Positions 3,157 through 15,609 of a stretch of DNA of 16,204 nucleotides are shown here, piece after piece. This stretch comes from Octopus sinensis (lineage: Eukaryota): positions 1 to 16,204 of the forward strand of contig NW_021825195.1 in assembly GCF_006345805.1 (NCBI RefSeq). The letters run 5' to 3'. How positions within the stretch are numbered: position 1 is the first letter of the stretch; the number at the start of each line of letters is the position of its first letter. Under the pieces are notes generated by a model. That model made no database searches and was not told the DNA's origin. It saw only the letters and a program-made list of their open reading frames with translations. A program made the translations under genes and the position numbers.

Positions 3157-3695
3157 ATACAAAATAAGAAAATGGAGAAACACATCTTAATCAATGATCA
3201 ACTACCAGATAATACCCAATCACATAGTTTATTAAACCACTACATATGTGTATGTTTCTATGTGTATATTATATTATATATTATGGGTATGTACCCACTA
3301 TTGTATGGGTGTACCTCCTCTGATTTTCATATTTAATTTAGTTTGTTCTTCATAATCTCTGAAGAGGCCTTGGGATATTTTTGTAAGTGTCTCATTTATA
3401 ACTACATATTAACCTTTCACACATGGCTAATATGAGCATAATGAGGCACCCATATCTGCATGGCTGAAACAGCTGTAAGATGTAGTTTATATTTATATTT
3501 GTATTTATTTATATTCACTTATACATACTGTACTTATTGTATCATATTACTCTTTCATGTACATTGTTTTTTGTTCTATATTATTATGTTTGACCTTAAT
3601 GTTCAAATGTAGTGGTTTAATAAATTATGTGATTGGGTATTATCTGCTAGTTGATCATTGATTAAGATGTGTTTCTCCATTTTCTTATTTTGTAT
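3157..3695 (+). mobile_element. Short non-coding insert with 89-bp inverted terminal copies and an internal hammerhead-like motif (putative non-autonomous Penelope-like element)
   Basis: 3157-3245 is the reverse complement of 3607-3695 (2 mismatches by eye). The right end runs into (TA)n. The Penelope-like assignment is inferred from the HHR plus inverted-terminus architecture. Confidence 0.6.
3355..3481 (+). ncRNA. Type I hammerhead ribozyme-like motif with extended stem II
   Basis: Stem I is ATCT 3355-58 / AGAT 3478-81, the core is CTGAAGA 3359-65, and stem II is GGCC 3366-69 / GGCT 3462-65 with nested helices. GAAA lies at 3466-69, stem III is the palindrome CAGCTG 3470-75, and the GTA cleavage triplet ends at 3477. 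Confidence 0.75.
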
Positions 3696-3744
3696 ATATA
3701 TATATATATATATATAATATATATATATATATATATATATATAT

Positions 3745-3896
3745 ACAATTGTAGCGTGGAAGATGTTTGTAAGCCATTTAGAAACACACAAAAGTCGTTC
3801 GATTCACTTCAACATTAAACTTAAATGTTGAAGTGAATCGAACGGCTTTTGTGTGTTTCTTAAATGGCTTACAAACACCTTCCCCGCTGCAATTGT
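3745..3896. repeat. Near-perfect long hairpin (72/73-bp arms, 7-nt loop) in an insert flanked by (TA)n
   Basis: 3745-3816 pairs with 3824-3896; 4 substitutions and 1 indel by eye; loop AAACTTA. Confidence 0.93.
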
Positions 3897-4000
3897 TTTC
3901 GTTTCAGCACGCAATCTCAGATCAAATCACTTGCTATGCGAGTACATTTCCGTAATATATACATATACATATATACATATATGCATATATACATACATAT

Positions 4001-4159
4001 ACGACGGGCTTCTTTCAGTTTCTGTCTACCAAATCCACTCACAAGGATTCAGTCGACCCAAGACTATAGTAGAAGACACTTGCCCAAGGTGCCATGAAGT
4101 GAGACTGAACCCGGAACCATGTGACTGGAAAGCAACCTACACACAGCCACGCCTGCGCC
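4001..4159 (-). mobile_element. SINE family A, 5' half only
   Basis: Reverse complement of the 14489-14651 head; ends in the (TA/TACA) tract at 3956-4000. Confidence 0.85.
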
Positions 4160-4199
4160 AGGTGACTTTCATCTAATTTTTCATTTTCAATGTCTGTAC

Positions 4200-4520
4200 C
4201 AGATTATTTGCCTTTTCTGAATCGCGTCTTTTTGGCGCATTTGTTCAATCCCATACTCATCCTCATATCATTGCTGAAACTATAGAGAATTGGTAGGCTT
4301 TATAATTCGTTGTTACTCTCTGCGAAGATTTTCAACTTACCCGTCTACAAGGGATAATTTGTATTTTGTCCGTAACACCTGCATCCCCATAGCGGTTCAT
4401 TTTGCAATTTTATTAATGGGATAAAAGTAAGGCAGAAACGTAGCGTTGTGGACAGTGAGTCAGCATAGAAGATTCCTCTTCTTATAAGTACAGGACTGGT
4501 TTTGATGACTTTTCCGTTTA
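4200..4520 (-). mobile_element. Old R4/Dong-like reverse transcriptase fragment
   Basis: The minus strand reads IKTSPVLIRRGIFYADSLS..FCLTFIPL..KLKIFAESNNEL..YSFSNDMRMSMGLNKCAK..FRKGK. This matches the clade pattern IRRGIFQGDSLSPLLF..YMDDLKLFA..FS.DIGM.FGL.KCA; the catalytic YMDD has decayed. Confidence 0.75.
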
Positions 4521-4521
4521 C

Positions 4522-5470
4522 ACCGCTGCCTTTTTGCAACATCCCTGACTGTGTGGCTATTATTATACTATATCGGTTCGACTGGTTTTCCCTCTGGTAT
4601 TTGATGCGATGTTGAGCTGGAGCTTAAAGTCCGCATTAAGCGCTAAAATCACTTGGTTAAGAAGTACCCTCCATCACTGCTGGTGATTATTTCGTCAGCT
4701 AATATGTTTGTTTGTTCCTTCTCGAGCCATCCCTGGCTCATAAGGGCCGGTTTCCCGGTTTCCTTGGCGCATAGGATCCCCATCTGGACGGGACGCCGGT
4801 CCGTCGCAGGTGAGCTGCAAGATACAGAAGGAAAGAGTGAGAGAAAGTTATGGCGAAAGAGTCAGCAGAAGTTCGCCATCATCTGCTGCCGGACTCGCGT
4901 GGAGCTTAAGTGTTTCGCTCATAAACACACACATCGCCCGGTCTGAGATTCGAACCCGCGATCCCTCGACTGCGAGTCCGCTGCTCTAACCACTAGGCCA
5001 TGTGCCTCCACCGTCAGCTAATATAGCCAGCGCCAAATAAGGATGCATCGTCAACATAACAACGTACCGTTGGCCGTCAATAGCAGTTCAAAGGTGATTT
5101 AGTTTACATATCTATCTATGCCGTTGTTACAAATACTTCATTCATTTATAGCCCGCCAGCTTTTTGCGACGTCACAGGCTGTTTGGCTATAATTATACTA
5201 TATCGGTTTGACTGGTTTTCTTTCTTACATTCGGTGCGAGGTTGAGCCACCGCTCAAAAGCCACAGAAAACGGTGAAACCACTTGACACAGCTCTGCCAT
5301 CCGCCGTCGCATACTATTATTTCGTCAGCCGATTCAGTCAGAGTTTAATGAGGACGTGTCATCAACATGAGATTATATCTCTGGACGTTAATAGCAATTT
5401 AAAAGTGATCTAATCAACACATCCCATTATAGTGGATGTGCTAATTAATATTCCTTATAAATACCGCTGC
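4522..5470. repeat. Diverged tandem duplication, 311-bp unit x2 (first unit interrupted by a SINE)
   Basis: Shared blocks are 'ttatactatatcggtt(c/t)gactggttttc', 'tattatttcgtcagc' and 'tcaacat..aatagca'. Boundary motifs at 4522, 5152 and 5463 give a 311-bp period after removing the 319-bp SINE plus TSD. Confidence 0.8.
4706..5011 (-). mobile_element. Full-length tRNA-derived SINE (family B) with 13-bp TSD
   Basis: The minus-strand head has A box TGGCCTAGTGG and B box GGTTCGAATCT, and the tail is (AAAC)n. TSD CGTCAGCTAATAT lies at 4693-4705 and 5012-5024. Confidence 0.93.
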
Positions 5471-14289: not shown

Positions 14290-14488
14290 TATATATATAT
14301 ATATATATATATATATATATATATATATAAGAGAACAAAGTACGTACGCCGCTATATATATAATATATATATATATATATATATATATTAATATAATATA
14401 TATATATATATATATATATATATATATATATAATATATAATATATATATATATATATATATATATATATATATATATATACATACATA
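14290..14488. repeat. (TA)n arrays with a short 24-bp interruption
   Basis: Directly visible. Confidence 0.95.
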
Positions 14489-14905
14489 GGCGCAGGAGTG
14501 GCTGTGTGGTAAGTAGCTTGTTTATCAACCACATGGTTCCGAGTTCAGTCCCACTGCCTGGCACCTTGGGCAAGTATACTCTACCATAGCCTCGGGCCGA
14601 CCAAAGCCTTGTGAGTGGATTTGGTAGACGGAAACTGAAAGAAGCCTGTCGTATATATGTATATATATATATATATATGTGTGTGTGTGTATGTTTGTGT
14701 GTATGTGTTTGTCCCCCTAGCATTGCTTGACAACCCATGCTGGTGTGTTTATGTCCCCGTCATTTAGCGGTTCGGCAAAAAGGGGCTGATAGAATAAGTA
14801 CTGCGCTTACAAAGAATAACTCCCGGGGTCGAGTTGCTCGATTAAAGGCGGTGCTCCAGCATGGCCGCAAAATGACTGAAACAAGTAAAAGAGTAAAGAG
14901 TAGAG
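14489..14905 (+). mobile_element. SINE family A, best-preserved full-length copy
   Basis: Head 'ggcgcaggagtggctgtgtggtaag..gagttcagtccc' (A/B-box-like) and CORE-like 'accttgggcaagt'. Internal (TA)/(TG) at 14652-14705; 3' module ending 'aagtaaaagagtaaagag'. Confidence 0.9.
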
Positions 14906-14915
14906 AATATATATA

Positions 14916-15254
14916 ATACAAAATGGAACAAGAACGCAAAGCATCCGGACAGCTAGGTGATACAGAAAGGGACACCAAAATATCCAGATAGACGATACAA
15001 GGAAAACAAGGACGGGTCATTCGAAGCTCCCCCTCTTCAGTCAAGCACCAGATTATCTTCGCAATTTCGGCTGATTATTCTTGAGATTGCTCCAATCTGA
15101 CCAGAGCCAAGGAAAAACTAAGCTAAGAGCATTAGATTCCTTGGAAGAAAGCAGTGAATGTATACAATAACAACGACGTTTATCTGGATGTTTTGTTGTC
15201 CCTTTTTGTATCACCTAGCTCTCCGGATGTTTCTGTTCTTGTCCCATTTTATAT
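14916..15254. mobile_element. Short insert with about 78-bp inverted terminal copies between TA-rich tracts (putative non-autonomous element)
   Basis: 14916-14994 is the reverse complement of 15177-15254 (roughly 85-90% by eye); TA tracts on both sides. Confidence 0.7.
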
Positions 15255-15325
15255 ACATATATATATTTTCAGAATGAGGTACAAAACCAAGGGAGTGAAG
15301 ATTTTAGAACATTTATAAAAAGAAG

Positions 15326-15373
15326 GTCTTACAGCTGTTTCCAGGATATTTGTTATAGTCCTTCATCGGAGAC
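15326..15373 (-). ncRNA. Minimal type I hammerhead-like motif (variant core)
   Basis: Minus strand: GTCT-CCGATGA-AGGA(ctataacaaata)TCCT-G-GAAA-CAGCTG-TA-AGAC. It shares GAAACAGCTGTAAGA with the 3466-3480 motif and lies in an insert of about 210 bp flanked by (TA)n. Confidence 0.62.
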
Positions 15374-15467
15374 GGTGTGAGAAAATGCTTAAGCAATATT
15401 TAATTTAGATAAGATACGAAATAGAGAGTGAAGTGGAGGAATGAAAACAGATGTGAGATATGCAGGG

Positions 15468-15609
15468 ATATATTATATATATATATATATATATATATAT
15501 ATATATATATATATATATATATATATAATAATATATAATATATATATTTATATGTATGTATGTAATGTATGTATGTATGTATGTATGTATGTATGTATGT
15601 ATGTATGTA
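15468..15609. repeat. (TA)n then (TATG)n microsatellite
   Basis: Directly visible. Confidence 0.97.

What the first reader, a model, noticed from the sequence alone, without database searches (positions are those of the whole stretch)
3157..15470. Candidate system: several families of short, ribozyme-bearing, inverted-ended inserts that live in (TA)n arrays
Seen: at least five mutually dissimilar 140-540 bp non-coding inserts directly abut TA/TAA microsatellites (3157-3695, 3745-3955, 10877-11017, 14916-15254, 15265-15470). Three contain HHR-like motifs and three have one end recopied in inverted orientation; the first has both. None has Pol III boxes, a transposase remnant or a recognisable TSD. 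Known: Penelope-like elements have HHR-containing pseudo-LTRs that are often inverted. Inference: these are non-autonomous PLE-derived or retrozyme-like RNAs mobilised by an autonomous PLE (GIY-YIG + RT) elsewhere that prefers (TA)n. Their density here (5 or more in 16 kb) would imply a very large hidden ribozyme population.
Basis: partly seen in the sequence, partly recalled or inferred. Interest (0 to 1): 0.8.

Follow-up and report, generated by a model that had tools for sequence, protein, structure and literature searches.

The report
Penelope retroelement stubs in TA repeats
Four of the five short inserts are cut-off end pieces of protein-coding Penelope-like jumping genes and the fifth is likely a gene-less hitch-hiker of the same kind, so this is a known type of repeat; one family, however, has a swapped base pair in its predicted ribozyme core and copies that likely record the capped start of its RNA.

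Summary
The five inserts are real repeats (hundreds to thousands of copies each) but not a new ribozyme system. Walking outward, four (E1, E2, E3, E5) join GIY-YIG endonuclease frames of Penelope-like elements (PLEs); reverse transcriptase was reached for E1 and E2. E1, E3 and E5 look Hydra-clade, already described as (TA)n-targeting and hammerhead-bearing. E2 is Nematis-like and its last 93 bases are the first 31 codons of the gene. Inverted arms vary (35-637 nt) and nearly always pair one short and one tailed end (18 of 21, 21 of 22): the known PLE signature, not MITE ends. Only E4 fits 'non-autonomous': a 0.8-kb non-coding head-to-tail unit whose hammerhead-like motif is broken (0 of 63 intact). 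Two extras in E2: a natural G3-C8 hammerhead core (51 of 52 copies; found in print only as a lab mutant) and 43 of 97 copies starting at one site, 521 genome-wide with an extra G absent from long copies, likely run-off at the cap of uncut sense RNA. No pile-up at the ribozyme cut site. The scan reached similar verdicts on other genomes.

The parts
2985..3248 (-). E1 inverted arm: 171-nt tail (2985-3156) plus 92 nt of the 3' end (3157-3248)
3249..3695 (+). E1 main stub: last ~450 nt of a Hydra-type PLE 3' region, ending at the short end before (TA)n
   Evidence: joined 1.9-2.4 kb downstream of a GIY-YIG frame in 10 of 10 fetched loci; RT with YRDD in L238
3355..3481 (+). E1 type I minimal hammerhead, ~100-nt stem II region, palindromic stem III, predicted cut after GUA
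   Evidence: motif scan; core boxes intact in 49 of 60 copies
3745..3826 (-). E2 inverted arm ending at the short end
3814..3956 (+). E2 main stub with tail; starts 3' of the family's G3-C8 hammerhead, which this copy lacks
3864..3956 (+). first 31 codons of the E2 parent ORF (RT + GIY-YIG, Nematis-like linker)
   Evidence: in-frame continuation in L428 and L436; window translation; GIY-YIG over Pfam cut-off in L347
10877..10918 (-). E3 inverted tail piece
10919..11017 (+). E3 main stub with hammerhead (10931-10994, stem I damaged in this copy)
   Evidence: joined to a GIY-YIG C-terminus in L330 and L341
14330..14353 (-). E4 tail, separated from the body by the element's own (TA)n and an inserted SINE-like repeat (about 14488-14905)
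14916..15178 (-). E4 main stub of a ~0.8-kb non-coding head-to-tail unit; broken hammerhead-like motif at 15011-15040
15177..15254 (+). E4 inverted arm ending at the short end
15265..15470 (-). E5 stub without inverted arm; intact minimal hammerhead at 15326-15373
   Evidence: joined ~1.0-1.3 kb downstream of a GIY-YIG C-terminus in 8 of 30 upstream loci

Best explanation
Four of the five inserts are shortened end copies of four different protein-coding Penelope-like retrotransposon families and the fifth comes from a gene-less 0.8-kb unit likely moved by such a protein; all were likely made by the PLE protein cutting (TA)n DNA and copying the element RNA from two fixed internal start points. 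Shown: fixed short and tailed 3' ends, variable 5' ends, variable inverted arms, one short plus one tailed end per two-armed insert, joins to GIY-YIG/RT frames, E2's ends lying inside its ORF. Inferred: each target strand primes one cDNA, one from each start point, and joining of the two cDNAs gives the head-to-head pair; copying usually stops early, leaving stubs. For E2 the start points lie only ~150 and ~205 nt from the likely RNA start, so many cDNAs would run off the capped 5' end of uncut sense RNA and gain one G. The hammerheads ride along in the end repeat; cleavage in the cell is untested.
For: Coding links: E1 11 of 30 upstream loci, 10 of 10 re-fetched, RT in L238, whose 18 homologues carry PF26215 in 13 and PF00078 in 1; E5 8 of 30; E3 2 of 30 on the same strand, 3 more inverted; E2 L347 722-aa RT+GIY-YIG frame between an inverted arm and a 3' copy, in-frame start in L428, L436. 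Short+tail pairs 18 of 21 (E1), 21 of 22 (E2); arms 35-637 and 51-219 nt; TA/TAA repeat within 14 nt of the end in 74 of 78 (E1) and 51 of 72 (E2). Smooth 5' truncation in unselected samples of 29-30 copies of E1, E3, E5. E4: 18 of 28 copies read by eye have the element's own tail directly upstream of the body, 7 also its own 3' end, none a shared other sequence or linked ORF. E2 starts: 43 of 97 within 9 nt, 85 of 97 span the predicted cut; G before the start in 521 places against 274 for A or T, 30 of 30 G-copies lack the element's upstream sequence and long copies have C (16) or T (5), never G, of 21. Same anatomy in PMC8557442, PMC3846280, PMC11167929.
Against: RT core not reached for E3 and E5; E3 rests on 2 loci. 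No parent found for E4, so 'moved by a PLE protein' is by anatomy only, and a rare coding parent could have been missed (search scores only the best 40). No tree was built; clade calls rest on motifs. Short-end coordinates for E3-E5 fell before an element-internal AT run, so their end and TA counts (25 of 42, 7 of 20, 13 of 28) are unreliable. The extra G could be RT's own terminal addition or a tiny first exon, since the site also reads like a splice acceptor; no RNA data could show a start, strand or cut. Arms of one insertion are not independent in the 97.
Confidence: 0.88

Rival explanations
1. All five are independent non-autonomous ribozyme RNAs (non-LTR retrozymes) that self-cleave, circularise and are moved in trans.
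For: E4 is non-coding and closes on itself in partial tandems; hammerhead boxes in E1, E2, E3, E5; a 2026 preprint derives animal retrozymes from PLE ends.
Against: Four families run on into coding PLE sequence; copies are truncated at variable points, not monomers cut at the ribozyme (4 of 42 near the E2 cut, p=0.47); E4, the only closed unit, has 0 of 63 intact cores.
Confidence: 0.07
2. The inserts are MITEs or fold-back DNA transposons with terminal inverted repeats inserted at TA.
For: Window copies of E1, E2, E4 look like TIR elements flanked by TA.
Against: Arm length varies 35-637 nt, many copies have no arm, the two ends differ by a tail, and the bodies continue into RT/GIY-YIG frames.
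Confidence: 0.01
3. For E2 only: the pile-up of 5' ends marks a splice acceptor (or RT's own added base), not a capped RNA start.
For: Upstream sequence reads like a branch point, pyrimidine tract and CAG/TAG acceptor in both subfamilies; the D. virilis Penelope intron ends at hammerhead helix I (PMC4209133); 20 of 97 copies start 2-3 nt later, at the would-be exon start.
Against: No shared sequence upstream of the G in 30 copies, so a first exon would be 3 nt long; the AG is kept in 13 of 97 copies; an extra G is the described mark of cap copying in L1/SVA (PMC3287187).
Confidence: 0.25

Closest known systems
Canonical EN+ Penelope-like element insertion unit (pLTR, adjacent inverted 5'-truncated copy, optional tail; PMC8557442, PMC3846280)
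   Same: 5' truncation, inverted copy, tail at one end, pLTR holding the first codons of the ORF, no readable TSD in microsatellites.
   Different: Tails of E1 (~173 nt) and E5 (~140-155 nt) are 4-5 times the 30-40 bp described; the one-short-one-tailed rule is counted here (39 of 43).
Hydra clade PLEs (PMC8557442 section 11; Hydra-1_Obim, Hydra-2_aMil)
   Same: GLYRDD RT and CxCx5C linker (E1), CxCx5C and CxxC (E5), CxxC-E-N C-terminus and a stem III like Hydra-2_aMil (E3); (TA)n targets; hammerheads.
   Different: Hammerhead sequences differ from the listed Hydra-1_Obim, so these are further families; 3' regions are long (E1 ~2 kb).
Nematis clade PLEs; Poseidon PAc of the green anole (PMC11167929) for mechanism
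   Same: E2 parent has a Cx3CxxC linker and CCHH-type GIY-YIG resembling Nematis rows in the supplement; two 3' ends inside the ORF as PAc's two RT start sites; copies span an uncut hammerhead.
   Different: Clade by motif only; G3-C8 core; pile-up of 5' ends with an extra G not found described for PLEs.
Minimal type I hammerheads of metazoan PLEs (PMC4209133)
   Same: Short stem I, bulged base after A9, palindromic stem III, opposite-strand pairs, thousands per genome.
   Different: E2 has G3-C8; the natural swap in print is U3-A8 (PMC4209133, PMC3088659).
Non-LTR retrozymes and non-autonomous PLEs such as MRC1 (bioRxiv 10.64898/2026.07.22.740005; PMC8557442)
   Same: E4: no ORF, head-to-tail unit with partial tandems, PLE-type ends and tail.
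   Different: E4's hammerhead core is broken; only partial tandems seen; parent unknown.

Membership tests
EN+ Penelope-like element | RT and C-terminal GIY-YIG in one ORF joined to the end repeat | tested here: met
   E2: L347, L428; E1: RT and EN in L238, frame broken
EN+ Penelope-like element | RT reached for E3 and E5 | tested here: inconclusive
   GIY-YIG C-terminus only; thumb-like region for E5
EN+ Penelope-like element | 5' truncation, inverted 5' copy of variable length, optional tail | tested here: met
EN+ Penelope-like element | hammerhead motif in the end repeat | tested here: met
   E1 49/60, E2 50/58, E3 28/50, E5 37/55 cores intact
Hydra clade (E1, E3, E5) | CxCx5C linker, CxxC near the EN end, no CCHH, (TA)n targets | tested here: met
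   E1 and E5 show the linker and CxxC; E3 copies are cut before the linker and show only the C-terminus
Hydra clade (E1, E3, E5) | phylogenetic placement; RWK and DKT motifs | not tested
   no tree built; the copies held do not reach the N-terminus (close homologues P0001, P0003 show DKT)
Nematis clade (E2) | CX2-5CxxC linker plus CCHH endonuclease | tested here: met
   L347 translation against supplement rows; Neptune shares the motif, so not exclusive
Nematis clade (E2) | phylogenetic placement | not tested
   no tree built
Non-LTR retrozyme (E4) | no coding capacity, head-to-tail unit | tested here: met
Non-LTR retrozyme (E4) | complete type I hammerhead in each unit | tested here: not met
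   0 of 63 copies; GAAU, no stem I
Non-LTR retrozyme (E4) | circular RNA and self-cleavage | not testable with these tools
   only contigs of runs guessed to be RNA were offered
Non-LTR retrozyme (E1, E2, E3, E5) | no link to coding sequence | tested here: not met
MITE | fixed-length TIRs and constant TSD | tested here: not met
   arms 35-637 nt, unequal ends

The most novel reading that the evidence does not exclude
The E2 family is a young Penelope-like element whose hammerhead naturally uses a G3-C8 core pair, so far known only as a laboratory rescue mutant, and whose thousands of short copies are not random truncations but cap-to-start run-off cDNAs of uncut, capped sense RNA. That would give in vivo proof of the template strand and RNA start, explain solo end repeats, and let PLE start sites be read from genomes alone.
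Probability: 0.55. Interest if true: 0.55.

Novelty: new member of a known kind. Interest (0 to 1): 0.36.

Why it matters
As posed, little: it is the known debris of PLE transposition, though the families seem uncatalogued in the one supplement checked. The E2 details bear on open points of PLE biology: whether sense or antisense RNA is the template in vivo (left open in PMC3846280, answered in vitro in PMC11167929), whether the hammerhead cuts the RNA that gets copied (85 of 97 copies span the site uncut), and whether the C3-G8 pair is still under selection (a double swap kept in 51 of 52 copies suggests so). Both are cheap to test.

Tried and rejected
Rfam scan: no hammerhead. Family search with PF26215: not in the library. 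GIY-YIG family search: none of the 30 best loci carried any of the five ends; links came from walking instead. L115/L163 chimera suggesting E3 belongs to an L148-type element: rejected, a repeat lies between and L330/L341 give a contiguous different EN. Early idea that E2 has a hard 5' limit and no parent: rejected by 557 upstream matches and L347/L428. Idea that E2 5' ends pile up at the predicted ribozyme cut (3 copies): rejected in the unselected sample, 4 of 97. No such pile-up in E1, E3, E5; E4 has 5 of 30 at one site without a G, not followed. Relaxed hammerhead scan of 8 E4 copies on both strands: one chance-like hit. Homologue search with the E1 linker-EN piece: none. Sequencing runs: no RNA holder listed; contigs of four runs guessed to be RNA cover the E2 end deeply and the ORF thinly but cannot show start, strand, cut or circle. 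Monomer folding gives the hammerhead stems only for E2, as expected for dimer-type motifs, so it was not used as evidence. The tandem array at C2:2.03 Mb holds E2 pieces but no PLE protein hit.
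Full report
Setting. The window is contig C1666 of a 2.7-Gb genome, rich in microsatellites and SINE-like repeats; close protein relatives are named from octopods. I call the inserts E1 (3157-3695), E2 (3745-3955), E3 (10877-11017), E4 (14916-15254) and E5 (15265-15470).

Observation. All five exist, abut TA/TAA repeats and do not resemble each other; E1, E2 and E4 have inverted recopies. 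All are repeats: first-look candidates 1371, 1746, 412, 3456, 2850 and exact 20-22-mers 105, 3432, 103, 1742, 281 with reversed controls at 0. These are lower bounds, yet about 9,800 candidates is far from the ~850,000 that 5 per 16 kb would mean. Other copies correct the borders: E1 includes an inverted 171-nt tail at 2985-3156, E3's first 42 bases are an inverted tail, and E4's tail lies at 14330-14353 beyond an inserted SINE-like repeat.

Ends. Each family has two fixed 3' ends, a short one and one with a tail, and variable 5' ends. Among two-armed inserts, 18 of 21 in E1 and 21 of 22 in E2 have one short and one tailed end (exceptions: tail-tail twice, short-short once, one unclassed); shorter arms run 35-637 and 51-219 nt, and some are tail only; a TA/TAA repeat follows within 14 nt in 74 of 78 and 51 of 72 ends. 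My short-end marks for E3-E5 were misplaced, so their counts in that call (25 of 42, 7 of 20, 13 of 28) are not used. Unselected samples of 29-30 copies show smooth 5' truncation in E1, E3, E5. This excludes MITEs and matches the PLE unit described in PMC8557442 (passages, section 11 and supplement look-ups) and PMC3846280 (passages).

Links to coding sequence. E1: a GIY-YIG C-terminus lies upstream in 11 of 30 loci found with an upstream probe and 1.9-2.4 kb upstream in 10 of 10 re-fetched; L238 adds an RT stretch with YRDD, whose 18 homologues carry PF26215 in 13. E5: a different GIY-YIG end about 1.0-1.3 kb upstream in 8 of 30 loci. E3: a third one, contiguous in 2 of 30, inverted in 3 more. 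The CxCx5C linker (E1, E5), the CxxC near the end and GLYRDD fit the Hydra clade, described as nearly always in (TA)n and with hammerheads; the one octopus Hydra in that supplement has another hammerhead. E2: 557 exact matches to its upstream 21-mer; L347 holds a 722-aa RT plus GIY-YIG frame between an inverted arm and a 3' copy; in L428 and L436 the E2 end runs in frame into the ORF, so window 3864-3956 is the first 31 codons. Its linker resembles Nematis rows; no tree was built. RT cores for E3 and E5 were not reached.

E4. Walking upstream returns to its own end: by eye 18 of 28 printed loci (2 of 30 left out as too short) have the tail directly before the body and 7 also the preceding 3' end; none shares another upstream sequence, and the two PLE protein hits among the 30 are not joined to it. 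Four copies hold no credible frame. It is a 0.8-kb non-coding head-to-tail unit with PLE-type ends. Its motif has CUGANGA with a variable position 7 and a short stem II, but GAAU and no stem I: 0 of 63 intact. It works like a non-autonomous PLE; it fails the retrozyme definition used in bioRxiv 10.64898/2026.07.22.740005 (first part and passages).

Hammerheads. Core boxes are intact in 49 of 60 (E1), 50 of 58 (E2), 28 of 50 (E3), 37 of 55 (E5) copies, with the short stem I, bulge after A9 and palindromic stem III of PLE minimal hammerheads (PMC4209133, parts 1-2 of 4). That paper already reports thousands per genome, opposite-strand pairs and low activity. E2 is unusual: G3 with C8 in 51 of 52 scored copies, stem II paired in 45 of 48 around 15 different loops. 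In print I found G3-C8 only as an engineered rescue (PMC11167929 parts 1-2, PMC8495972 and PMC3884650 passages) and U3-A8 as the natural swap; searches were made, in an open-access library only, and supplements of those hammerhead surveys were not read.

E2 5' ends. In 97 arms taken in genome order from the first 100 matches, 12 continue upstream, 43 start within 9 nt at one site about 60 nt before the predicted cut (p about 3e-21 against uniform; arms are not fully independent), 4 start near the cut (no excess, p=0.47) and 85 span it. Genome-wide the start motif is preceded by G in 521 places and by A or T in 274; 25 of the first 100 of the latter are A, and T is the templated base of one subfamily. 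All 30 G-copies examined lack the element's upstream sequence and share nothing before the G; long copies have C (16) or T (5) there, never G (see also 17 G of 29). Both subfamilies show it. An untemplated G is the described mark of cap copying in L1/SVA (PMC3287187 passages), and PLE end repeats carry initiator-like starts (PMC2377424, PMC3846280 passages). I infer run-off at the cap of uncut sense RNA; a splice-acceptor reading or RT's own addition remains possible. Searches listed no PLE report of it. RNA data could not test it.

Mechanism. Established in vitro for a Poseidon element: the protein cuts AT-rich DNA on both strands and starts at two sites inside the ORF, which define the tail, on unprocessed RNA. 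The counts here fit: one strand from each site, joined head to head; early stops give stubs.

Verdict. Earlier scan notes on other genomes reached the same reading, one also noting starts just before the hammerhead; none exist for this genome. Interest 0.36, carried by the two E2 details.

Noticed in passing
   Followed up: partly
window 12633-14287: Tc1/mariner-like remnant with ~108-bp terminal inverted repeats, TA flank and broken transposase-like frames; name from recalled motifs, Pfam gave no family.
   Followed up: partly
window 9101-9682: Short element with ~30-bp imperfect inverted ends, likely a decayed mariner-type DNA transposon.
   Followed up: no
window 2461-2900, 3998-4160, 10135-10310, 14488-14905; 4720-5011, 8680-9078: Several copies of two SINE-like families, some with internal microsatellites; one sits in E4's own (TA)n.
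   Followed up: no
G000, e.g. L171:2532-4874, L169:2753-5092: A young Neptune-like PLE family with many intact ~780-aa RT + GIY-YIG frames and a large upstream frame; unrelated to the five inserts.
   Followed up: partly
L161:5961-6134: An E2 stub inserted inside an E1 element's ORF.
   Followed up: no
E4 unit, e.g. L258:1440-1470: A GTAAGT splice-donor-like word follows the tail in most copies, and 5 of 30 unselected copies start at one site 50 nt before the broken motif; parent and meaning unknown.
   Followed up: no
E1 and E5 families: Tails of ~173 and ~140-155 nt, much longer than the 30-40 bp in print; E1's ORF has asparagine-rich linker stretches as noted for rotifer PLEs.
   Followed up: partly
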